The notes under the pieces: generated by a model
Database searches by the model: none
Told to the model about the DNA's origin: nothing
What the model saw: only the letters and a program-made list of their open reading frames with translations
Position numbers and translations under genes: made by a program
Shown here: positions 50,363-61,049 of the stretch, one piece after another
Layout of the letters: every line of letters begins with the position of its first letter
Numbering within the stretch: the stretch's first letter is position 1
NCBI GenBank assembly: GCA_038897215.1
Contig: JAWAWX010000001.1
Location: forward strand, 384,001-448,000
Source of the DNA: Acidilobaceae archaeon
GTDB lineage: Archaea; Thermoproteota; Thermoprotei_A; Sulfolobales; Acidilobaceae
Direction of reading: 5' to 3'
DNA length: 64,000 nt

Positions 50363-51245
50363 CCTTCACGTATCTCAGAACTCTCTCTTGGTCGAGAGTA
50401 AGACCCCATCTGCTCCTAAAATATCTTACGATATAGCTCGCGTCTCTCCGGAGGAGGCTCTCAGCGCTAGGCTCGTCTCTGTAGACGTACTGAGGCCAGT
50501 CTATCACGTAGGCTTCCGAGGATTCCAGCACGGCTAGGACGTTGTACTCGCTCAAGTCTCCATGAACTATCCCTACTCTAGTGTAGGCTATTCTAATGGT
50601 CTCCACGACTGTTCTCGCTAGCTTCTCTGCATCGACCTCGACGAGGCCTGGCTTGAGCTTGTATAACTCGACTCCCGGGATGTACTCCTGGACTACAGCG
50701 TGTCTATTGTAGGCGATGCCGTCGGGGACTCTGGCTCCCTCCTTCTTCAAGACTACTAGAGCCTTGAACTCACGCTCAGCAGATAGCTTAGCTAGCTCGA
50801 CGAAGTCTCCGAGCACTTCGCTAGCATAGCTCCTGTAGACTCTAATCCTCCTGAAGCCTCTTACTCCACCTCTATGGAGCTTGAGCACGAGAGGCTCTCC
50901 GCTTGGCGCGTAGGCTAGATAGGCCGTCCCCTCCTTGCCTACCCCGATCCTCTCTCCTAGAGTTGCTACTACCCCCCGAGACCTCAGATTGTCTAGAGCC
51001 AGGATGTCGAGCCCCCTGAAGGTTAGAGCGTAGCTGAGCTCTGGCGTAGACGCTCTCTCGACGAGCTTGAGTGAGAGAAGCCTTGAGAGAGCTCGTGCAA
51101 GCCTGCCTGGAGGCATGCCGGTCTTCTTCTCCAACACTTCTAGAGGCACATGCCTACGTCTTCTCGATAGCTCCTCTATAGCTCTGAGTACTCTCAGCTC
51201 GCCTCCGTCTAGAGACTCGAGTATAGCCCAGAGCGAGCCGGGCAC
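50343..51245 (-). CDS. rio2: RIO2 family serine/threonine kinase
   Basis: N-terminal wHTH, IGVGKE, AEREF, HGDLSEYNV, IDWPQ. Confidence 0.93.
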   Translation of the reverse strand: MPGSLWAILESLDGGELRVLRAIEELSRRRRHVPLEVLEKKTGMPPGRLARALSRLLSLKLVERASTPELSYALTFRGLDILALDNLRSRGVVATLGERIGVGKEGTAYLAYAPSGEPLVLKLHRGGVRGFRRIRVYRSYASEVLGDFVELAKLSAEREFKALVVLKKEGARVPDGIAYNRHAVVQEYIPGVELYKLKPGLVEVDAEKLARTVVETIRIAYTRVGIVHGDLSEYNVLAVLESSEAYVIDWPQYVYRDEPSAESLLRRDASYIVRYFRSRWGLTLDQERVLRYVKGEIHEI

Positions 51246-51386
51246 CCGTGTCTACAGAGAGTCTAGCAACCCGTATAGAGTAAACCGTAGAGCGCTACCC
51301 TCGAGAGTCTAGAGCGCGGGTTTAGAGCCGGTTTGAAGTATAAATTTTTAAGCTAAACTCCTCTTACTAGAAGCGGGAGAGCTACA

Positions 51387-51755
51387 GTGGAGCATACAGA
51401 GAGCATTATCCCGGAGAAGGAGGGGATCGTGGAGGTCGAGGATGAGGAGGGAGTGACGCTCTACGTTAGAGGCAGCAGGTACATAGCTAGAGTAGCATCG
51501 ACTCTAGGCAGCGAGACTAGAGCTAGGATAATAGAGCTCCTCTTCGAAGGACCCAGAGACCTAGACGATATAGCGGCTGAGCTGAGACAAAGCAAAGCCA
51601 ATATAAGCAATCAGGTGAAGAGACTCGAGGACCTTGGTCTCGTCTCGAGCTCGTACCACGCGGGCGAGAGAGGAGTCAGGAAGGTGGTGAAGCCTAGAGT
51701 CAGGAGAGTAGTTATAGAGCTCGCTCCGCCATCGCGTCAATACTCGCCACAGTAG
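51387..51755 (+). CDS. ArsR-type HTH regulator
   Basis: LGSETRARIIELL, QSKANISNQVKRLEDLGLV, GERGVRK. Confidence 0.88.
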   Translation: MEHTESIIPEKEGIVEVEDEEGVTLYVRGSRYIARVASTLGSETRARIIELLFEGPRDLDDIAAELRQSKANISNQVKRLEDLGLVSSSYHAGERGVRKVVKPRVRRVVIELAPPSRQYSPQ

Positions 51756-51816
51756 AGAGAGCCGGGGCTAGGGGAAGAAGAGATAGCGTGAGAGAGCAAG
51801 CCTCTAGCCGCTCAGG

Positions 51817-53430
51817 CTAGAGCTTTCTAGCTGCTACTGCTAGGAATAGCGTGAAGAGAGGAGAAGGCTTTAGAGGTCTACTCTTGAACTCAGGGTGTGC
51901 TTGTATCCCTAGGTAGAATGGGTGCGTTTTCTCCGGGAGCTCTACTATCTCGGCTAGCTTGTTTCTCGAGACACCGCTTATGGAGAGACCAGCGTTCTCC
52001 AAGGCGTCGACATACTTGGGGTTGACCTCGTACCTATGCCTATGCCTCTCATAGACTACCTCTGCTCTATAGGCTCTCCAGGCTAGAGTGCCGGGCTTGA
52101 TCTCGATAGGCTGAGAGCCGAGCCTCATAGTGCCTCCTAGCATCGTCACCCCAACCTGCTCTGGTAGCAGGTCTACTACGGGGTGGGGCGTCGTCGGGTC
52201 TATCTCCGTGGTGTTTGCTCCAGCTAGCCCTACAGCGTTTCTAGCGTACTCTACTACCATTAGCTGCATCCCGAAGCATATGCCTAGAGTAGGGGTCTTC
52301 TCTTCTCTCAGGAAGCGTAGAGCTCTAATCTTGCCCTCTGCTCCCCTGACCCCAAAGCCTGGCAGGACTACTGCCCCATCTACCTCTCCTAGCTCCTCCT
52401 CCACGTCTACCTCCCCTAGCTCTATGTCCGTAGACTCTATCCACTCGAAGACAGGCTTGAGCCCCAGGTGGGCTGCCGAGTGCTTTACGGCCTCGACTAT
52501 GCTTATGTAAGCGTCTCTAAGCTTAGTGTACTTGCCTATCATCGCTATCCGCACGGGCTCGCTGGCTGAGACGAGCTTCTCCACGAAGCTCCTCCACTCG
52601 TCGAGCTTGGGCTTCGAGGGGGGTAGTCCCAGCCTCCGGGAGACTAGCTCGCCTACTCCCTGCTCTTCTAGTATGAGGGGTACTCTGTATGTGGTGTCTA
52701 CGTCGTAGCTGTTGAATACGTGGCTTTCGGGGAGTGTAGCGTGGAGAGCTATCTTCCTACGAGCTTCAGCGTCTATAGGCTTCTGGGACCTGACTATGAT
52801 TATATCGGGCTGGATCCCGATCCTCCTAAGCTCTTGAACGCTGTGCTGGACCGTCTTCGTCTTGATCTCCCCAGTCGTCGAGAGGAGCGGGGCTAGAGCT
52901 ACGTGGATGAAGAGAGTGTTCTCGAATCCCTCCTCTAGCCTCATCTGCCTAGCTGCTTCGAGGAAGGGCAGTCCCTCAATGTCCCCGACTGTGCCCCCGA
53001 TCTCGACTACCGCTATCTCTGCTCCCGATTCTCTAACGACCTCCTTTATCCTAGCCTTGATCTCATCAGTCACGTGGGGGATTATCTGGACTGTCTGCCC
53101 TAGGTAGGCGCCCTCTCTCTCCTTCGATATGACGCTCAGGTAGATCTGCCCCGTCGTAATGTTGTGCTTCTTAGTCAGGTTAGCGTGCAGGAATCTCTCG
53201 TAGTGCCCCAAGTCTAGGTCCGTCTCTCCCCCGTCTTCTGTCACGAAGACTTCTCCGTGAGCATAGGGGCTCATGGTTCCAGCGTCTACGTTTATGTAGG
53301 GGTCTATCTTGACGGCTGTTACGCTGAAGCCTCGCGAAGCCATCAGCATAGCCACGCTAGCCGCTACCGTCCCCTTGCCTACACTCGAGAGCACGCCGCC
53401 CGTGATGAAAATGTACTTAACGGCAGCCAC
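51817..53430 (-). CDS. pyrG: CTP synthase
   Basis: [53 protein letters not shown]. Confidence 0.98.
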
Positions 53431-53533
53431 AGAGCCCGCTCTAAGAGATCCCGGGGAGAGCCTATTAGGGGCTCTCTCGCTAGAAGAGCCTCCTGCTTAA
53501 GAGCCTCGGGTCTAGACTGGTATGAATGGCTCT

Positions 53534-53589
53534 GGGATGATGTGATTGGCCTTTGATGAGCATCGTGATTAGTAACGCCCAGCTGACCT
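53534..53589 (+). ncRNA. Box C/D guide sRNA overlapping the 3' end of a convergent gene
   Basis: C ATGATGT 53537, D' ATGA 53556, C' ATCGTGA 53562, D CTGA 53583. Guide GATTGGCCTTT is antisense to 23S AAAGGCCAAUC (11 nt). Confidence 0.8.
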
Positions 53590-54231
53590 CCGGAGCCTGC
53601 TGAGGAACGGGTTGTGGGAGAGCTCAGCGGCCATGAAGGTGGAGGGACCGTGCCCCGGGTATACTCTATGGTCTGGCGGGATCGACTCAGCGATTTTCGA
53701 GAGAGTCTCCTCCATAGCGTGGGGGTCGGAGCCAGGCAAGTCTACTCTGCCCACAGACCCCTTGAATAGCACGTCGCCAGTGAACGCTAGCCTAGAGCCT
53801 ACCAGCACTATGCTACCAGGGCTGTGCCCCGGGGCTTCTAGAACTCTGAGCTCCACATCGCCTACTCTAATCGAGTCCCCCTCGCTGACTAGAGTAGAGG
53901 GGTCTACGCCGAGAGGGGGGAAGAGAGGCTCCTCTACTCCCTCTAGCCTCACCTCAGCCAGCCTCAGTGCAGCGTAGTACTCTACTCTTCCCACAACCAC
54001 GTCCGCTCCAGTGGCTCCAGCTAGCTCTGAGACTCCTAGAGTGTGGTCGAAGTGCATGTGGGTTAATACTATGGCTCTGAGCTCTGCCCCCGCTACTCTA
54101 AGCCTATCGAGCACTACGCGAACCACACCGGGCCAGCCGGGGTCTACGACTACCGCCTCTCCTCCCGAGACTAGTATGTAGCAGTTGGTCGCGAGAGAGC
54201 CTCCTCTAACGACCTCTACGAGAGCCCCCAA
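53569..54231 (-). CDS. MBL-fold metallohydrolase (glyoxalase II-like)
   Basis: THMHFDH, PGHSPG, TGDVLF, GRVDLPG, PGHG. Confidence 0.93.
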   Translation of the reverse strand: MGALVEVVRGGSLATNCYILVSGGEAVVVDPGWPGVVRVVLDRLRVAGAELRAIVLTHMHFDHTLGVSELAGATGADVVVGRVEYYAALRLAEVRLEGVEEPLFPPLGVDPSTLVSEGDSIRVGDVELRVLEAPGHSPGSIVLVGSRLAFTGDVLFKGSVGRVDLPGSDPHAMEETLSKIAESIPPDHRVYPGHGPSTFMAAELSHNPFLSRLRRSAGRY

Positions 54232-54280
54232 GAGAGCCTCCCGCTCTTCTTTCGAGATGTTGAAGCTAAATGCTGTAATG

Positions 54281-55264
54281 CTAGCCTTCTAGCCAGACGC
54301 TACTCCCGGAGTCTCCGGGCTCCAGGATTCTCGTTGTCAGCACGACGTCAGTGAAGAGAGCAGACCAGCCGCCGAAGCCGACCGCGATCGTCGCGGAGGA
54401 GTCTAGAACTCTGCCTCTCGTGACGCAACTAGTCCTCCCCGTCTTGACTACTCTATCCCCCTCTCTAGCATCCACGGGAGCAGCGTCCACGGGCTTGTAC
54501 CCGAGCCCGGCTATCCTGCTAGACTTGCAGACTAAGCTGACTGTATCAGAGCCCGCGAACCCCAGGCCTGCGAGTCTGCCGGTGACGTCCATGTCTACAG
54601 CTCTCTTCTCGACATCGACTAGAGGCTTCGCTACAGCGAAGTCTACAGTGTTAACCGCCTCAACTACCGCTCTGAGCCTTGTCTTCGCTCCAGTGAGTTC
54701 AGCTAGAGTGTTGTAGACCCATGCTATAGCTCTAGCAACTAGACACTGGCTTGGAGCAAGCCAGGGGGCTATCCTCTCGTGCCACACGTAGACAGCGACT
54801 CTGTCGTCTAGCGTGCCCCCATCATGCCTCCCTGGTTGCACTATGTCTCTCACCTTGACCTCCTCGGGTCTCAGCCTCGGGTCTCCCACGAATACGTGAG
54901 CGTTGGAGCCTAGGAGGAGCTCTCCACGCTTATCCTCGAAGAACCATCCCAGAGTGCCTGCTGTGACCTCGATGCTCCCTATAGACACGCCCGCTACCAG
55001 TGGCCTGAACCTAGCCCTCTTGTCCACGCTGAGAGCTCTAACCTCCCCTATCTCCACGACGTCTGTCGGAACGCCCCCCACCTCTCTCGGTATGACCTCG
55101 TGTGGTCTAAGCTGGTCGACTGGAAGCTTCCTCGAGACGTAGACCCTCAGGCAGAGCTCTCCAGGGTCTTCTCTGCCCCTCTTGATTCTAGGCATTAGCT
55201 TATTGCTGACCCCCACGACGTTCGGATACTCTGATAGCATAGACCAGAGTCTGAGAGCCTCCAC
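54281..55264 (-). CDS. Nal1-like trypsin-fold serine protease
   Basis: N-domain PNVVG...VYVSRK...IPREVGGVPTDVVE, then RPLVAGVSIG, AGTLG, SNAHV (His), QPG..DGG, VDFAVA (Asp), KTGRTS, PGDSGS (Ser). No signal peptide. Confidence 0.85.
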   Translation of the reverse strand: MEALRLWSMLSEYPNVVGVSNKLMPRIKRGREDPGELCLRVYVSRKLPVDQLRPHEVIPREVGGVPTDVVEIGEVRALSVDKRARFRPLVAGVSIGSIEVTAGTLGWFFEDKRGELLLGSNAHVFVGDPRLRPEEVKVRDIVQPGRHDGGTLDDRVAVYVWHERIAPWLAPSQCLVARAIAWVYNTLAELTGAKTRLRAVVEAVNTVDFAVAKPLVDVEKRAVDMDVTGRLAGLGFAGSDTVSLVCKSSRIAGLGYKPVDAAPVDAREGDRVVKTGRTSCVTRGRVLDSSATIAVGFGGWSALFTDVVLTTRILEPGDSGSSVWLEG

Positions 55265-55406
55265 GCTCTCCCCCCACTAGGCGATAGTTTACTGAATCGA
55301 GTTGAAATAGCTCGAGTGTTGCTCGCGCTCGAGAGCTACGTGGTGCCTGCTTATAACCGCCTATTTTTCGAGATCGACGCTTAGAGGAGAGGGTGCAGTC
55401 TATACA

Positions 55407-55715
55407 ATGCACTCCTGTCATGATCTAGGCATAGATACCGATATCAGAGTCAAGGTCTGCAAGATGATAGAAGAGGTCCTAAGGGAGATCGACGGGTATA
55501 TCGACGAGTGCTTTGGTAAACGCAACCCCCTCGAGGCCATGGAGGTCAGAAAGAGGAGAGAGTTTAGAGTAGCGGCCGCGCACCTGGTTAGAGCGAGCTG
55601 GTATCTCGGCTGCCTCCCGGAGCAGATTAAGAGTAGCTCGATGCTGGCTGAGATAGTGTGGGAAGAGTTTCTGGAAGAGAGGCTGGAGAGGATAAGGAGG
55701 GGGATTGTTGAGTGA
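55407..55715 (+). CDS. Hypothetical alpha-helical protein
   Basis: 102-aa ORF, TTATAA upstream, GAGGAGAGG RBS. Its stop overlaps the next start (GTGA). Confidence 0.7.
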   Translation: MHSCHDLGIDTDIRVKVCKMIEEVLREIDGYIDECFGKRNPLEAMEVRKRREFRVAAAHLVRASWYLGCLPEQIKSSSMLAEIVWEEFLEERLERIRRGIVE

Positions 55716-56092
55716 CCAGAAGAGAGGGGCTTCGAAGATTCGCCGAGTTGCTGGCTAATGACTTCGATGTCGAGCCGCCAGCACTAGAGGTAGCGGGGAG
55801 GGATAAGCTACAAGAGGTCTGCGGCTCCCCCGTACTTGCTTGCTACAACTTCTACGAGAAGAAGATGTACGTTGGGGAGGACGTCGACTTATGGACGTTT
55901 CTCCACGTGTTCAGCCACCATCTACGCCTCTCCTTCCTAAACTGGGACGCTGAGAAGTTCCGCAGCGAGTTGCTGAAGTCGATGCTCGACCCTCTCTACT
56001 CGATGCCCCACGAGGCTGAAGCCGAGAGGTTCGCTAGAGTCTTCGCGAAGCTCTATAGGAAAGTGTGGGAGGAGCTAGTCGAGAAAGCCTAG
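55712..56092 (+). CDS. Zincin-like (HExxH) small protein with catalytic Glu replaced
   Basis: LACYN....MYV, TFLHVFSHH, PHEAEAERFA. Confidence 0.7.
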   Translation: MTRREGLRRFAELLANDFDVEPPALEVAGRDKLQEVCGSPVLACYNFYEKKMYVGEDVDLWTFLHVFSHHLRLSFLNWDAEKFRSELLKSMLDPLYSMPHEAEAERFARVFAKLYRKVWEELVEKA

Positions 56093-56114
56093 AGTGGAGC
56101 GAGAACTCTCCCAG

Positions 56115-56136
56115 CTCGGAGAGCGCGTTCTCCGAG
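56115..56136. terminator. Hairpin between convergent genes
   Basis: CTCGGAGA-N6-TCTCCGAG, a perfect 8-bp stem. Confidence 0.35.
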
Positions 56137-56137
56137 T

Positions 56138-56407
56138 CTAGAGCTGGCTTCTCTTCTCCTCCGCGAGAGCTCTGACTTCGCCGACCTCGACTATATCAGT
56201 AGGGATTCCGTCGACCTCTCTCGGTATGACCTCGTGGGGCTTGAGGAAAGCTAGCGGTAGCTTCCTAGACACGTATACTCTTATGCAGAGCTCTCCTGGG
56301 ACCTCCTTGCCTCCCCTGATTCTAGGCATTAGCTTGTTACTAATCCCTACGACGTTAGGGTATCTTGAGAGAATCCTCCATAAGCGGTCCCAGTCTAGAG
56401 TAGCCAA
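56138..56407 (-). CDS. Stand-alone copy of the Nal1-like protease N-terminal domain
   Basis: 57/74 aa identical to residues 5-78 of the protease at 54281-55264. Has its own TTG start and TAG stop. Confidence 0.88.
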   Translation of the reverse strand: MATLDWDRLWRILSRYPNVVGISNKLMPRIRGGKEVPGELCIRVYVSRKLPLAFLKPHEVIPREVDGIPTDIVEVGEVRALAEEKRSQL

Positions 56408-56495
56408 GCTCTCCGAGCCCCCCGCTTGGGGGAGTAGGGGAGCCTAATGCCTCTATTGCTCTCTTCCTCGTTTTAACCGGCTTCTAGACAGGCCC

Positions 56496-56553
56496 GGGAG
56501 TTAACTCTACTTAAACGTAAACCGCACGAAGGACTGGAGTAGAGTTAACTCCC
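56496..56553. repeat. Perfect 16-bp inverted repeat with 26-bp spacer
   Basis: GGGAGTTAACTCTACT (56496-56511) and AGTAGAGTTAACTCCC (56538-56553). Each arm contains the palindrome GAGTTAACTC. Confidence 0.92.
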
Positions 56554-56843
56554 AGTTAGCTGTAATGTGGGGGCTCACGAGCCTCCTTGAGGCTGATTAG
56601 AGGCTTTCTGCTAGAGTGTCTCTAGTGGGAGCCGAGGCGCTCGATGAGATGCGCTAGCTTGAGCGAACAGTATTACGCTAAGCCGCGCGAGCCTGGGGAG
56701 AGCGAGTGCTAGAGCCTGCTCGCGAGAAGCCCCTCTAGGAGCTCTCGAAACTAGCCGTAAGACGGAGAATCTCATAGAGAGCGTGAGCGAGAAGAGCTTT
56801 ACGCTCGGCTTCCGGGGGAGGGGCTGGCTCGCCTTCGGCTCTC

Positions 56844-57254
56844 TCAGCTGGAGTATCGGGAGGCTGTCGCTACCTCCTTCTCGTGGGCTCTCATGCTTCT
56901 ATCAGCGTAGTGTGCTGTGTAGTGCTTGGGCTTGAGGGCTTTGACTATGACCTCGAAGGCTCTCGCCGGGTCTGTGTGGTCTCCGCAGGTGAATATGTCT
57001 ACGGTAGCGTACTCGTACTCTAGCCACGTGTGTATCGCCACGTGGCTCTCCGTTACTAGCGCTATGACTGAGACTCCTCCCTTCTTCCCCCCGAACTTCC
57101 AGCTCTTGACCTCGTGGAGTCTGGCTCCTGAGGCGTTGACGGCCTCGACCACGATCTCTCTGAGCCTCTCCTCGTCTCCGGCGAGCTCTCTGTCTATGCT
57201 GTAGAGACTGCCGTAGACGTGCTTCCCGACTATATAGTCTCGGCCATTATGCAT
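56844..57254 (-). CDS. Pyruvoyl decarboxylase proenzyme, AdoMetDC fold; probably the crenarchaeal arginine decarboxylase paralog
   Basis: [25 protein letters not shown] cleavage site, HTW.EY, TCG, YADRS. Confidence 0.9.
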
Positions 57255-57391
57255 CTCTATGCTTCAGCCTCAAGTAGCAACTCCTCGAGCTTCGAGCTAT
57301 TAAGCTCTACGGGAGCCCAGAGAGGCTACGAGCTGGTCGGCTCGCTAACCTGCGGTAATCCCGTGAGATGCTACGAGCTAAGAGCTCGCTC

Positions 57392-57886
57392 TCAGTTTCT
57401 CCGGCCGTGACCGTGGCCTTTGATCTCGTCTAGGAGGTACTCTGACATCTCCTCCAGGATGTCTAGCACTACGCTGACAGCGCTAGGGTTCCCCGGGCAG
57501 GCCACGACTAGAGACTCTCTCACGATGAAAGCCGTGGCAGAGCTCTGAACAGCTCTCAATCCGACCTCCGCGGAGCTCCTCCTCCTATGCTCCTCCCCGA
57601 AGCCAGGGAGCTCTTTCCGCGCTATTCTCCTCAAAGCCTCTACTGTGACATCGCGTGGACTCATACCAGTACCTCCAGTAACCACGACCACGCTCGCTCT
57701 CCCAGCTAGCTCTAGAACCGCTCCCCTAATCTCCCCGGGGTCGTTGGGTATCACTCTGTAAGCCACGAGCCTGAAAGGAGGCCTAGTACACCTCCTCCTA
57801 ACAATCTCCCACGTCTCATCCCTCTTACCGCCCCAGTAGACAGAGTTACTCGGGACAACGAAAGCCACAGGAACCTCGGCCACCAA
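57392..57886 (-). CDS. moaB: Molybdopterin adenylyltransferase MoaB/Mog family
   Basis: TGGTGMSPRDVT, LPGFGE, PGNPSAV. Start uncertain. Confidence 0.88.
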   Translation of the reverse strand: MVAEVPVAFVVPSNSVYWGGKRDETWEIVRRRCTRPPFRLVAYRVIPNDPGEIRGAVLELAGRASVVVVTGGTGMSPRDVTVEALRRIARKELPGFGEEHRRRSSAEVGLRAVQSSATAFIVRESLVVACPGNPSAVSVVLDILEEMSEYLLDEIKGHGHGRRN

Positions 57887-58002
57887 GCCGGCACCAAGCC
57901 GCTCCCGCCGACGCGAGCCTTTAACCACACACACCTACCCACCAAGAAAGCCAAAGCGTTGAGAATTCAGCACATGAAGCCACGAGGATATAGAAATTAG
58001 AT

Positions 58003-58422
58003 GTGTGGGCTTTTCCTAGGTCTAGACCAGAGCATAGATGTAATAGGGGAAGTGACAAGGAGGTGGAGGTGTTGCGCAGAATGCGTGCATTTTCAAGGTT
58101 TGCGTGTCGGCTTCTAGACTCTCCATGTGATGCTCTCGTTTACCTCGTGGAAACTCATTTCTTAAGGTCTAGGCGTGGGTCTCCTCGACCATCGTTCGTG
58201 AGATATGTCGTTATTGCTACTCTATTCTTACTGTCATCTCTAATTATTTTCGTTATTGTCTCCTGGATTGTGTGGCTTATGTTGAATCTCTTGGGAGGCC
58301 ATGTATACGGCTTGGAAGCTCTTGTACTCTTCTTTTTGCCTTTTCTGACTGCATCTCTGCCTTTTCTGTGCTCGATTAAATATTTTCAACGCGCGCTCAA
58401 ACACTTAAGGGTTAGGGTTTGA
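58003..58422 (+). CDS. Hypothetical membrane protein with atypical low-GC composition
   Basis: Two hydrophobic helices and T-rich codons unlike the neighbours. The real start may be near ATG 58081, after AGGAGGTGG. Confidence 0.5.
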   Translation: MWAFPRSRPEHRCNRGSDKEVEVLRRMRAFSRFACRLLDSPCDALVYLVETHFLRSRRGSPRPSFVRYVVIATLFLLSSLIIFVIVSWIVWLMLNLLGGHVYGLEALVLFFLPFLTASLPFLCSIKYFQRALKHLRVRV

Positions 58423-58423
58423 G

Positions 58424-59329
58424 CTAGGGGCTTCTGATGTATCCCGAGCCGTCGCAGACGGTCTTGGTGACTAGTATCCCTTCTCTGCATGTAGCGAACT
58501 CTAGTGCGTGCTTCTCTGTTGCTTCTCGCGCTTTCTCTAGTATCTCCTGCCTCAGGCTTCTCTTGAGATATCTGTAGCCGCGGACCCTCTCTCCCTCGAG
58601 CCGGTACAGTCTCCTGAGCTCTCCCTCTATGCTCGGTAGTGCTCTCGCTAGCCTCTCGAAGTTATCCGGCTTGGCTTTGTAGGTGCTCGCTGTTATCTGG
58701 AGTGCTCCTGCTCTCGCTGCTTCCCTGACTACTGCCTCTATGTTCTCGCTCGAGTCGTTAACTAGAGGGATGATTGGATCAAGCCTGATAGTCACAGGGA
58801 TCCCCGCGGACGCGAGTCTCGCCACTGCTCTCAGCCTGAGCTGGGGCGGGGGCGCTCCCGGCTCGAGGATAGCCGCTAGCCTCTCGTCTAGCGTGGTCAC
58901 TGTCACCGCCACGGCCACTCTACCCTTGTGCTTCTCCAAGACTTCAGCGTAGTCTAGGAGCACGTGGGGAGCCTTAGTCGTGACCAAGACTCTGAACCCT
59001 CTGGAGAGCAGCAAGCCGAGGACTCTGGCTGTCGCTCTATGCTCTAGCTCGAGAGGCTGGAGGGGGTCGCTGCTAGCCGAGAGCTCTACGAGAGAGCCCC
59101 GGGGGACTCGGCGCGAGTCTCTCTCGACGCTCTCGACGAGCCCCGGCTTCAAGCGGGGCTCGAAGAACCTCCTGATGTAGCTCGAGGCGTAGCAGTAGAG
59201 ACACCCGTGGCCGCAGCCGGTGTAAGGGTTCACTGTCCACTTGGGGGGGCAAGTGCACAGAGGAGACCTCCACGGGTCGAAGGGTCTCAGGACTCTCCAG
59301 CTCCCCGACCCCATAGAGCCGTGCTCCAC
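58424..59329 (-). CDS. Radical SAM protein, SPL-like family
   Basis: FDPWRSPLCTCPPKW, NPYTGCGHGCLYCYA, SSDP, LEPGAPPP, RLDPIIP, CREG. Confidence 0.92.
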   Translation of the reverse strand: MEHGSMGSGSWRVLRPFDPWRSPLCTCPPKWTVNPYTGCGHGCLYCYASSYIRRFFEPRLKPGLVESVERDSRRVPRGSLVELSASSDPLQPLELEHRATARVLGLLLSRGFRVLVTTKAPHVLLDYAEVLEKHKGRVAVAVTVTTLDERLAAILEPGAPPPQLRLRAVARLASAGIPVTIRLDPIIPLVNDSSENIEAVVREAARAGALQITASTYKAKPDNFERLARALPSIEGELRRLYRLEGERVRGYRYLKRSLRQEILEKAREATEKHALEFATCREGILVTKTVCDGSGYIRSP

Positions 59330-59462
59330 GCAAGCCAGCTCGGAGACTTGAGCCTAATCAAGCTTACACGAGCCGCCGGCCCCGCGTGCCGGAACCCGTG
59401 TCAGCGCTCTTAGCCCCCACTGCCGCGCCGGGCTCTCGGCCCTCTCTCCTCGGCTGGTCTGC
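59330..59462 (-). ncRNA. Candidate multi-stem structured leader RNA upstream of the radical SAM gene
   Basis: Closing stem CCAGC..GGAGA/TCTCC..GCTGG plus internal hairpins. G-U pairs favour the minus strand. Confidence 0.4.
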
Positions 59463-59564
59463 CGTGAGAGGTGCTTAGACGCGCTAGAGAACTCCATCAG
59501 CCGTCTTGGGGGAGCTCGTTTTTAGAGTAGATTAGCTTCGGGGGCTTGTTGAGGAGCTGGGTGG

Positions 59565-59816
59565 TTGCTTGTGGTTAGGAAGCGTCTCGTTATCAGTAGG
59601 GAGGCATGGGAGGCGTGTACTGCTACCCCCTCCCACTCTCTCGTCGGCTTTATGGAGGACCTTAAGCCTGGCGAGGAGGTAGAGATTGTTGGAGACGAGG
59701 AGTACGCTCCTTTGGAGGCTGTGGTCAGGATCCTCACGTGGAGGTGGAGAGTTGAGGTTGTTGGCGTCGAGAGAGAGGGGCATAGGTACGTCTTGAGGGT
59801 TAGGAAGGTGGGCTGA
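59565..59816 (+). CDS. TusA/SirA-like small sulfur-carrier-fold protein
   Basis: Single Cys, LKPGEEVEIVGD, YVLRVRK. Abuts the cysteine desulfurase gene. Confidence 0.6.
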   Translation: MLVVRKRLVISREAWEACTATPSHSLVGFMEDLKPGEEVEIVGDEEYAPLEAVVRILTWRWRVEVVGVEREGHRYVLRVRKVG

Positions 59817-61049
59817 TTGGGTTTCAGCTGCGAGAAGGTTAGAGAGGACTTCCCCGAGCTCTCTAGGCGGAAGGTAGTCTACCTGGATAGCACTGCTAGT
59901 AGCTTGAAGCCCAGGCGGGTCATTGAGGCTATGGCTGAGTTCATGAGCTACAGCTACGCTAACGTCCATAGAGGAGTCTACACTCTCTCTCTCGAGGCTT
60001 CAAGAGCATACGATGAAGCTCATGAGGTCGTAGCTAGATTCATAGGAGCTAGAGACTGGAGAGAGGTGGTCTTCACCAAGAGTACTACCGAGGCTATGCA
60101 GCTCCTAGCTCAAACCTTCATCCACAACAGGATAGTAAAGCAGGGTGATGAAGTGATACTGACTGAAGCAGAACACAACAGCACTCTACTCCCGTGGTAT
60201 AGAGCGGCGAAGAGCGCTGGAGCTAGAGTAAAGCTAGTCCCCGTAGACGAGGAGGGAGTACCTCGCTGGAGTCTCCTAGAGAGCATGGTCTCGGAGAAGA
60301 CTAGAGCAGTCGTCTTCGCTCACGTCTCAAACGTTACCGGCTACGTATCAGACGTCAGGAGAATAGCTAGGATAGCTCACAGCGTTGGAGCATACGTGGT
60401 AGTCGATGGAGCTCAGTCTGTTCCACACTTGAAGACTAGAGTCTACGAGCTGGAAGCAGACTTCTTAGCATTCAGCGGTCACAAGATGCTAGGGCCCACG
60501 GGCATAGGGGTTCTCTGGGGCCGCCTAGACATCCTGGAGGACTTAGAGAACCCTCTTGGTGGAGGCGATACCGTGAAGAACGTGACTCTAGCAGGCGAAG
60601 ACCTTATCATAGAGTGGGAAGACTTGCCGATGAGGTTCGAAGCAGGGACGCCCCCGATAGTCGAGGCAGTGGGCTTAGCCGAAGCCGTGAGATACCTTGA
60701 GTCGCTCGGCATGGAGAGCGTTGAGGAGCACGATAGAGAGCTCACTAGGCTCGCTCTCAGAGAGCTCGAGGAGATCGAGGAGGTCAAGATCGTCGGCCCC
60801 CGAGACCCCCAGAAGAAGACAAGCATAGTGGCTTTCAACGTGGGTAGTGTAGCCCCAGACCTGGTGGGGCTCTGGCTTGACAGCATGGGGATAGCTGTGA
60901 GGACGGGGCGCCACTGCGCTCACGTGCTCCACCAGAGGCTAGGCTTGCCTCTGGGAAGCGTTAGAGCCAGCTTCTACGTCTACAACTGCAGGGAGGACGT
61001 GTACGCTCTAAGCGAGGCTCTGAGAAAGCTCTCGGCTACGATAAAGTAG
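59817..61049 (+). CDS. sufS: Cysteine desulfurase, SufS family
   Basis: YLDSTASS, NVHRG, DGAQS, SGHKMLGPTG, FEAGTP, RTGRHCA. Confidence 0.95.
   Translation: MGFSCEKVREDFPELSRRKVVYLDSTASSLKPRRVIEAMAEFMSYSYANVHRGVYTLSLEASRAYDEAHEVVARFIGARDWREVVFTKSTTEAMQLLAQTFIHNRIVKQGDEVILTEAEHNSTLLPWYRAAKSAGARVKLVPVDEEGVPRWSLLESMVSEKTRAVVFAHVSNVTGYVSDVRRIARIAHSVGAYVVVDGAQSVPHLKTRVYELEADFLAFSGHKMLGPTGIGVLWGRLDILEDLENPLGGGDTVKNVTLAGEDLIIEWEDLPMRFEAGTPPIVEAVGLAEAVRYLESLGMESVEEHDRELTRLALRELEEIEEVKIVGPRDPQKKTSIVAFNVGSVAPDLVGLWLDSMGIAVRTGRHCAHVLHQRLGLPLGSVRASFYVYNCREDVYALSEALRKLSATIK

What the first reader, a model, noticed from the sequence alone, without database searches (positions are those of the whole stretch)
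54281..56553. Candidate new protease-regulated module: Nal1-like protease, free copy of its N-domain, dead zincin, partner protein and inverted repeat
Seen: four genes sit between core genes (MBL hydrolase and ArgDC). They are a cytoplasmic trypsin-fold protease with an intact His/Asp/Ser triad (-), a translationally coupled pair (102-aa helical protein and 126-aa HExxH-like protein, +), and an 89-aa gene that encodes only the protease's N-terminal domain (-). A perfect inverted repeat lies upstream of the 89-aa gene. Known: trypsin-like proteases act as effectors in prokaryotic conflict and signalling systems, and N-terminal/pro-domains commonly control protease activation or oligomerisation. 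Inference: this is a self-contained switch in which the free N-domain inhibits or co-assembles with the protease, and the middle pair supplies a sensor and/or substrate. It could be a toxin-antitoxin-like, defence or stress module.
Basis: partly seen in the sequence, partly recalled or inferred. Interest (0 to 1): 0.85.

Follow-up and report, generated by a model that had tools for sequence, protein, structure and literature searches.

The report
Split-and-duplicated protease gene, not a module
In this one archaeal species, a 1.1-kb piece of virus-like DNA sits inside the front of a resident NAL1-type protease gene, leaving the old front end as a separate 89-codon gene, so the four genes are a species-specific mosaic and not a conserved switch.

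Summary
All four ORFs and the 16-bp inverted repeat are real. The "module" reading does not hold.

- **Congener:** it carries one full-length protease between the same MBL and ArgDC genes, and none of the other three genes.
- **Co-occurrence:** no p102- or p126-like gene lies near any of 86 related protease loci. Among 351 genomes of the class, only this one has both the protease and the zincin family.
- **n89:** it is the ancestral 5' end of the protease gene. Its TTG start and about 160 bp upstream are orthologous to the congener's gene. The full-length gene now begins with a second, diverged copy of the ribosome-binding region and N-domain.
- **p102-p126:** this is a degenerate copy of a unit found on virus-like contigs (65-aa partner, HExxH mini-zincin, helical domain). 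p126 has lost the catalytic Glu.
- **Inverted repeat:** it belongs to a family-wide, single-copy, roughly 100-nt GTTAAC-box element, also present in genera that lack the protease.

n89 shows strong purifying selection on its own branch (14 synonymous, 4 nonsynonymous changes). It equals the NAL1 ATP-binding/trimer-contact domain. N-only or split versions occur in two distant relatives. A trans-acting N-domain therefore remains possible (about 0.3). Expression could not be tested.

The parts
54281..55264 (-). Full-length NAL1-like S1 serine protease (327 aa): N-domain 1-74, low-confidence linker 75-78, protease domain with His123/Asp208/Ser319. It ends 6 residues after GDSGS.
   Evidence: ORF; phrog_20754 'protease' E 1.9e-48; 38% identity to the putative serine protease of Aeropyrum coil-shaped virus; NAL1 profile and fold hits; AF2 pLDDT 90.6.
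55010..55281 (-). Second (derived) copy of the duplicated unit: about 25 nt of G-rich ribosome-binding region, a GTG start and N-domain codons 1-88. It now heads the full-length gene.
   Evidence: Local DNA alignment of the two copies starts at 55281 / 56429 and runs to codon ~88. Repeat D1 has a spacing of 1134. This branch has 9 synonymous and 11 nonsynonymous changes.
55265..55406 (.). 142-bp divergent intergenic region between the protease and p102, species-specific apart from the ~17 nt next to the protease start (to 55281), which belong to the duplicated unit.
   Evidence: Read. No counterpart in the congener locus.
55407..55715 (+). p102, a helical ORFan and probably a divergent, longer relative of the 64-70-aa Cys-containing partner that precedes p126-type zincins on virus-like contigs.
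   Evidence: No homologue besides itself in 5.8e9 proteins. The partner-family HMM ranks it first of 284 window ORFs, E 0.038. It occupies the same overlapping upstream position as in L024, L025 and L059. Its codon usage score is below all 34 reference genes.
55712..56092 (+). p126, a mini-zincin with an inactivated active site (HVFSH instead of HEFAH). H65, H69 and E101 are kept; the family's HC(E)R motif is lost.
   Evidence: 27 relatives at E<=1e-3 in an exhaustive HMMER search; alignment; the relatives hit DUF3920, DUF6782, SprT-like, Tox-MPTase4 and M78 weakly; AF2 pLDDT 93; the fold hits are zincins: SPRTN Z 6.7 (rmsd 3.7, 95 aligned), PprI Z 6.5 (rmsd 4.1, 89 aligned), abylysin Z 5.5, Wss1 Z 5.0.
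56115..56136 (.). 8-bp hairpin (CTCGGAGA / TCTCCGAG, 6-nt loop) in the 45-bp spacer between the convergent p126 and n89. Homology of n89 to the protease stops at its stop codon just beside it.
   Evidence: Read directly. No protease-like sequence beyond residue 87.
56138..56407 (-). n89, the ancestral 5' end of the protease gene (TTG start and N-domain), now a free-standing 89-codon ORF.
   Evidence: Region 56569-56178 aligns to the congener's protease start and upstream region at 68.7% over 399 nt. 70.8% amino-acid identity to the congener's N-terminus over all 89 residues. Own-branch pN/pS 0.085. Host-typical codon usage, 94th percentile.
56464..56575 (-). Conserved ~100-nt GTTAAC-box element containing the 16-bp inverted repeat (56496-56553). 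It is independent of the protease.
   Evidence: Conserved in the congener with compensatory changes. Found once per genome in genera g7, g14 and g5 of the same family, which lack the protease. Neighbours differ between genomes. No Rfam family.

Best explanation
This is a species-specific mosaic made by an insertion with partial duplication in the 5' part of a protease gene that was already resident between MBL and ArgDC in the genus. The extra 1134 bp carries two things. The first is a degenerate two-gene remnant (p102 plus a catalytically dead mini-zincin, p126) of a unit otherwise found on virus-like contigs. The second is a diverged second copy of the ribosome-binding region and N-domain codons 1-88, which now heads the full-length protease. 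The original upstream region, TTG start and N-domain were left behind as n89. The most likely route (inferred, not shown) is integration of a mobile element at the N-domain/protease-domain junction, with the element supplying a replacement 5' end, as prophage e14 does at icd (recalled from memory, not checked), followed by loss of the rest of the element. n89 keeps the ancestral expression signals, so a folded free N-domain is probably still made. p102-p126 has no demonstrable link to the protease. The inverted repeat is an unrelated conserved element that was already upstream of the gene.
For: (1) The congener has MBL, a single 349-codon protease ORF and ArgDC, with no p102, p126 or n89.
(2) n89 plus ~160 bp upstream is orthologous to the congener's gene start, whereas the full-length gene aligns only from inside the coding region. 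The TTG start and the first residues of n89 match the congener, not the full-length copy.
(3) The two copies are direct repeats 1134 bp apart. Homology starts ~25 nt before the start codons and ends at codon ~88, which is the predicted domain linker (pLDDT <50 at 75-78).
(4) The closest p126 relatives lie among arrays of small co-directional ORFs with PolB, primase and TnpB-like genes. They sit in a conserved order of 65-aa partner, zincin (1-3 copies), then a CGY helical domain. p102 is the top-ranked window ORF for the partner HMM.
(5) No co-occurrence of the protease with the zincin unit was found anywhere else searched. The protease has no conserved neighbour across 86 loci.
(6) p102 and p126 have less host-like codon usage than n89 and the protease.
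(7) A distant relative (L118) shows the same layout: an N-only 87-aa ORF, an opposite-strand gene, then a full-length protease on the same strand as the N-only ORF.
Against: - There is no integrase, att core or other mobile-element hallmark in the 1.1 kb. The integration route is inferred from the layout alone.
- The two N-copies are anciently diverged (pS 0.71, dS saturated). n89 has the shortest and most constrained branch (14 synonymous, 4 nonsynonymous changes). That is unexpected for a useless leftover unless the event is recent.
- The order of the three N-domains (n89, full-length copy, congener) is unresolved (delta lnL <1, AU p 0.25-0.72). An old in-lineage duplication with a selected n89 therefore cannot be excluded.
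- GC content of the insert is not distinct from its surroundings.
Confidence: 0.6

Rival explanations
1. n89 is a selected, trans-acting N-domain protein. By analogy with NAL1, whose ATP-binding domain contacts the protease domain of the neighbouring subunit to build trimers, free n89 would dock on the protease domain and tune assembly and activity, either by co-assembly or as a dominant negative. p102-p126 are hitch-hikers.
For: The ORF is intact, with pN/pS 0.085 on its own branch against 0.37 for the N-domain of the full-length copy. Its codon usage is host-typical. It keeps the ancestral start and upstream region. The N-domain aligns to NAL1 residues ~90-170, the domain that forms the trimer interface with the protease domain (PMC12012508). 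It is a confident separate domain. A relative (L103) encodes the N-domain (84 aa) and the protease domain (245 aa) as two ORFs overlapping by 4 nt. L118 has an intact N-only ORF about 45% identical by eye to its neighbour's N-domain.
Against: No free-standing homologue of similar length exists in 5.8e9 proteins apart from the same species (word-limited search). It is absent from the congener. The selection signal could date from when n89 was still part of the full-length gene. Two of its five unique amino-acid changes fall in the otherwise invariant DVVEIGE motif. L103 may be a frameshift or an assembly error. Expression is untested.
Confidence: 0.3
2. All four genes form one protease-regulated switch (toxin-antitoxin-like, defence or stress module), with p102 and p126 as sensor or substrate.
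For: The genes are tightly packed, and a dead zincin could serve as a decoy or adaptor. The p102-p126 complex prediction gave weak support: score 0.59, best control 0.17. The mark was reached by 58 of 80 solved complexes and 2 of 110 mismatched pairs, but at 0.60 or under by only 7 of those 80 and by both mismatches. The runs agree in at least 81% of contacts, and the partner pLDDT is at least 60.
Against: No co-occurrence was found in any other genome or contig searched. There are no PADLOC hits. p102-p126 belongs to a different conserved unit that never includes a protease. The repeat element is independent. The complex result bears only on p102 with p126, not on any link to the protease.
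Confidence: 0.07
3. The duplication is an assembly artefact.
For: None beyond the presence of a repeat.
Against: The copies are only 73% identical at the DNA level. The same arrangement is present in independent metagenome assemblies and, for the protease-p102-p126 part, in a MAG.
Confidence: 0.01

Closest known systems
Rice NARROW LEAF 1 (NAL1) serine protease (PDB 7Y77, 8PMM and others)
   Same: Same domain order: a small N-terminal beta-rich domain (NAL1 ATP-binding domain, residues ~89-172) followed by a chymotrypsin-fold His/Asp/Ser protease. Profile E 5e-10; top Foldseek hits E ~1e-11.
   Different: Identity is only ~19%, and the archaeal protein lacks NAL1's extra N-terminal 88 residues and its C-terminal tail. 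In this subfamily the last strands of the second barrel appear to sit before the GRT...GDSGS segment. A free second copy of the N-domain has not been described for NAL1.
Aeropyrum coil-shaped virus ORF 25-326, putative serine protease (phrog_20754)
   Same: 38% identity over 97% of the protein and the same length and architecture, including the early end after GDSGS.
   Different: The viral copy is single and complete. The ACV genome gave no match to p102 (E<=1) or p126 (only a marginal hit in an unrelated phage).
Minimal zincins: minigluzincins (abylysin, jannalysin, selecase), SprT/Wss1/SPRTN, IrrE/ImmA (M78)
   Same: p126 relatives carry HExxH plus a downstream Glu in ~125 residues. The p126 model matches these folds: SPRTN Z 6.7 (rmsd 3.7, 95 aligned), PprI Z 6.5 (rmsd 4.1, 89 aligned), abylysin Z 5.5.
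   Different: No Pfam or NCBIfam family reaches its threshold. p126 has Val in place of the catalytic Glu. Its upstream partner is not an HTH repressor as in ImmR/ImmA.
Gene-end duplication at integration sites (prophage e14 in icd; tRNA-gene integration) and orphan modules of polymorphic toxin loci
   Same: A displaced, still readable piece of the target gene lies on one side of the inserted DNA, and a diverged replacement copy restores the gene on the other side.
   Different: Here the 5' end is replaced, not the 3' end. No integrase or defined att core is present, and the insert is only 1.1 kb. The comparison rests on general knowledge, not on a test.

Membership tests
NAL1-like S1 serine proteases | Chymotrypsin-fold protease domain with a His/Asp/Ser triad | tested here: met
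   H123, D208 and S319 are invariant in 33 relatives. Foldseek matches NAL1 at E 1e-11 and alpha-lytic protease/streptogrisin at E 1e-4.
NAL1-like S1 serine proteases | N-terminal domain homologous to the NAL1 ATP-binding domain | tested here: met
   Profile positions 25-125 align to NAL1 residues 90-208. n89 hits Pfam NAL1_N at E 0.0027, below the curated cut-off.
NAL1-like S1 serine proteases | ATP binding and a trimer/hexamer cage | not testable with these tools
   Known for rice NAL1 (PMC12012508). No oligomer model or ligand test was run here.
Zincin metallopeptidases (HExxH) | HExxH with a catalytic Glu | tested here: not met
   p126 has HVFSH. Glu is present in at least 90% of 24 relatives.
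Zincin metallopeptidases (HExxH) | Zincin fold with two His and a downstream Glu as metal ligands | tested here: met
   H65, H69 and E101 are invariant. The fold matches are nearly all zincins, at middling Z of 5-6.7.
Anti-phage defence or toxin-antitoxin systems | Match to a known defence protein model | tested here: not met
   PADLOC gave 0 families for all four proteins at E<=1.
Anti-phage defence or toxin-antitoxin systems | Conserved co-occurrence of the components as a neighbourhood | tested here: not met
   The four genes are together only in this species.
Integrated mobile element | Integrase or recombinase gene | tested here: not met
   The species-specific 1134 bp holds only p102, p126 and the N-domain copy.
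Integrated mobile element | Direct repeats of the target flanking foreign cargo | tested here: met
   ~270-bp direct repeats (73% over the 224-nt core of the repeat) flank p102-p126, whose relatives are on virus-like contigs.
Virus-borne partner / zincin / CGY-domain unit | A small Cys-containing partner ORF overlapping the start of the zincin gene | tested here: inconclusive
   p102 is in the right place and overlaps p126 by 4 nt. Similarity is weak (E 0.038, rank 1 of 284).
Virus-borne partner / zincin / CGY-domain unit | Downstream or fused CGY helical domain | tested here: not met
   p126 ends at residue 126 and is followed by a 45-bp spacer and then n89.

The most novel reading that the evidence does not exclude
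The free 89-residue N-domain is a natural trans-acting assembly factor or competitor for a cage-forming NAL1-type protease. On this reading, separate encoding of this domain (here, in L118 and in the split gene of L103) is a recurrent way of regulating this protease family.
Probability: 0.3. Interest if true: 0.6.

Novelty: new variant of a known kind. Interest (0 to 1): 0.35.

Why it matters
The result removes a candidate "new protease-regulated system". It shows instead how a resident archaeal gene can be remodelled by a small piece of virus-derived DNA while staying intact. The free N-domain, equivalent to the NAL1 domain that builds the active oligomer, is a ready-made natural experiment. 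If it binds the protease in trans, it would show how assembly controls this poorly studied protease family, which is shared by archaea, their viruses and plants. Two by-products may deserve their own study: a family-wide conserved GTTAAC-box element and a conserved virus-borne mini-zincin unit.

Tried and rejected
- **Family libraries:** Pfam and NCBIfam gave nothing for the protease, p102 or p126. PADLOC gave nothing. PHROGs named only the protease.
- **Phage collection:** tblastn found no p102 or p126 relative.
- **Word-indexed protein search:** it found only self-hits for n89, p102 and p126. Only the exhaustive HMMER search found p126 relatives.
- **Direct PDB search:** phmmer with the protease against PDB sequences found nothing; the family profile did.
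- **Order of the three N-domains:** site patterns with the ACV outgroup gave 3:2:1, FastTree gave support 0.745, and constrained ML with the AU test rejected no topology. A mosaic or crossover pattern along the DNA was looked for and not seen.
- **Decayed N-domain fragments:** tblastn over ~96 related loci found none, so the fate of displaced fragments could not be judged.
- **Conserved neighbour of the protease:** none across 86 loci. A G000-type MBL next to other proteases was not found.
- **Repeat element:** Rfam gave only chance-level miRNA hits. No conserved ORF lies downstream of the element.
- **p102 look-alikes:** the ESM Atlas search was uninformative.
Full report
**Observation**

The ORF list shows four genes between a Lactamase_B protein and an AdoMet_dc-family decarboxylase:
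- protease 54281-55264 (-), 327 aa
- p102 55407-55715 (+)
- p126 55712-56092 (+)
- n89 56138-56407 (-)

The p102 stop and the p126 GTG start overlap as GTGA. n89 matches protease residues 5-86 without gaps at 72% identity. The inverted repeat 56496-56553 has perfect 16-nt arms. The genome is a single 1.16-Mb contig, and these are the only two copies of the N-domain in it. The n89 protein is called on 8 contigs. The two run assemblies read are 100% identical to the window, one of them spanning all four genes.

**What the proteins are**

The protease matches phrog_20754 (E 2e-48). It is 38% identical to the putative serine protease of Aeropyrum coil-shaped virus. A profile of 33 relatives hits rice NAL1 structures (E 5e-10), with the N-domain aligned to NAL1 residues ~90-170. 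The AF2 model (pLDDT 90.6) has a separate N-domain and a low-confidence linker at residues 75-78. Its best fold matches are NAL1. In NAL1 that domain binds ATP and makes the trimer contacts with the neighbouring protease domain (PMC12012508). His123, Asp208 and Ser319 are invariant.

p126 has 27 relatives in an exhaustive search. They carry LHEFAHH and a downstream HExEA; p126 has LHVFSHH, with the metal ligands kept. The relatives weakly hit DUF3920, DUF6782, SprT-like and M78. The p126 model (pLDDT 93) matches zincins, including SPRTN, PprI, abylysin and Wss1. p102 has no relative found by ordinary search.

**Is it a conserved module? No.**
- The only congener has MBL, one protease and ArgDC, with no p102, p126 or n89.
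- The protease family is patchy: 9 of 351 genomes of the class.
- Distant chromosomal relatives of the zincin occur in 44 of 351 genomes, and only this genome has both.
- In 86 loci (485 kb) that encode relatives of the protease, no ORF matches the zincin profile, p102 or the partner profile.
- The seven zincin loci have no protease.
- The protease has no conserved neighbour at all.

**Where p102-p126 comes from**

The closest p126 relatives lie in arrays of small co-directional ORFs with PolB, primase and TnpB-like genes. There a 64-70-aa Cys-containing protein overlaps the start of the zincin gene. One to three zincin paralogues follow, and then a helical "CGY" domain, either separate or fused. 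An HMM of the small partner ranks p102 first among 284 window ORFs (E 0.038). That score is weak, but p102 is in exactly the expected position. In this genome the unit is degenerate: the catalytic Glu and the HC(E)R motif are lost, and the third part is missing.

A complex prediction for p102 with p126 gave weak support. The score was 0.59 and the best control 0.17. The mark was reached by 58 of 80 solved complexes and 2 of 110 mismatched pairs. At 0.60 or under, it was reached by only 7 of those 80 and by both mismatches. The runs agree in at least 81% of contacts, and the partner pLDDT is at least 60. The codon usage of p102 and p126 is less host-like than that of n89 and the protease.

**What n89 is**

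The stretch 56569-56178 (n89 and ~160 bp upstream) aligns with the congener's protease start and upstream region. The full-length gene aligns only from inside the coding region. n89 shares the TTG start and the first residues with the congener. The two copies in this genome share ~25 nt of G-rich leader and codons 1-88, and lie 1134 bp apart. n89 is therefore the ancestral 5' end, and the full-length gene now carries a derived copy.

The copies are old. Pairwise dN/dS is 0.10, with synonymous sites saturated. The three N-domains form a clade (support 0.976), but their internal order is unresolved. Branch counts over 57 codons:

| Branch | Synonymous | Nonsynonymous | pN/pS |
|---|---|---|---|
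| n89 | 14 | 4 | 0.085 |
| Full-length copy | 9 | 11 | 0.37 |
| Congener | 15 | 11 | 0.22 |

Either n89 is maintained by selection as a stand-alone gene, or it was part of the functional gene until recently.

**Parallels elsewhere**
- L118 has an intact 87-aa N-only ORF, an opposite-strand NYN-like gene (E 0.0018, below the Pfam cut-off), and then a full-length protease on the same strand.
- L103 encodes the N-domain and the protease domain as two ORFs overlapping by 4 nt.
- In G219 an N-domain ORF abuts a papain-family peptidase.

The N-domain is thus a separable module. The N-only / insert / full-length layout has arisen at least twice.

**The inverted repeat**

It is conserved in the congener with compensatory changes. 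The surrounding ~100-nt element, with four to five GTTAAC-type boxes, is also present once per genome in three other genera of the family that lack the protease. Its neighbours differ between genomes. It matches no Rfam family. It is not part of any protease module.

**Verdict**

The best reading (0.6) is a species-specific mosaic. A virus-derived two-gene remnant and a replacement 5' end were inserted at the domain junction of a resident NAL1-like protease gene, and the ancestral 5' end was left as n89. The integration route is inferred from the layout alone; no integrase or att core is present. The main rival (0.3) is that n89 is a selected trans-acting N-domain. The four-gene switch is unlikely (0.07). 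Expression could not be tested.

Noticed in passing
window 56464-56575 (-); also L006 7054-7162, L063 1496-1603, L064 1493-1600, L065 863-970, L066 1467-1573, L067 232-339, L156-L159 ~1501-1607: A single-copy ~100-nt element with 4-5 GTTAAC-type boxes arranged as a long hairpin. It is conserved in at least four genera of one archaeal family, with different neighbouring genes in each. It matches no Rfam family. It could be an RNA gene or an array of protein-binding sites.
   Followed up: partly
window 54281-54600 (-), protease C-terminal part: The protease, its congener orthologue and the ACV protein end a few residues after GDSGS. A segment resembling the usual C-terminal 'vGLxFAGS...CK' strands lies earlier, before the GRT motif. 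This suggests a circular permutation of the second beta-barrel (alignment; confident AF2 model).
   Followed up: partly
L024, L025, L056, L058, L059/L060 (metagenome contigs): A conserved virus-like gene unit: a 64-70-aa protein with two conserved Cys, one to three HEFAHH mini-zincins, and a 'CGY' helical domain that is either separate or fused to the zincin. No function is known.
   Followed up: partly
L019 1498-2653 (genome G219): A NAL1_N-like domain ORF (104 aa) overlaps the start of a papain-family (Peptidase_C1, E 9e-40) ORF, next to a MazG-like gene. The same N-domain seems to be combined with a different protease class, or the pair is frameshifted.
   Followed up: partly
L103 190-2948: A relative of the protease is split into an 84-aa N-domain ORF and a 245-aa protease-domain ORF overlapping by 4 nt. 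An MBL-fold hydrolase gene lies upstream. An MBL-fold gene (of a different subfamily) also adjoins the protease in this window and in the congener.
   Followed up: partly
L153/L154 1921-6206 (IMG/VR contigs): Three tandem paralogues (450, 455 and 430 aa) of the N-domain plus S1 protease on a 42-51-kb viral contig.
   Followed up: no
window 58003-58422 (+): A 139-aa predicted membrane protein in a low-GC patch (GC 0.45, GC3 0.43). Its codon usage is far outside the host range and it has no counterpart in the congener locus. It is probably foreign.
   Followed up: no
window 51000-61000 versus L006: The gene set around the locus is shared with the congener, but several single genes or small blocks (protease, radical SAM gene, the MBL-ArgDC block) are inverted relative to each other.
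   Followed up: no
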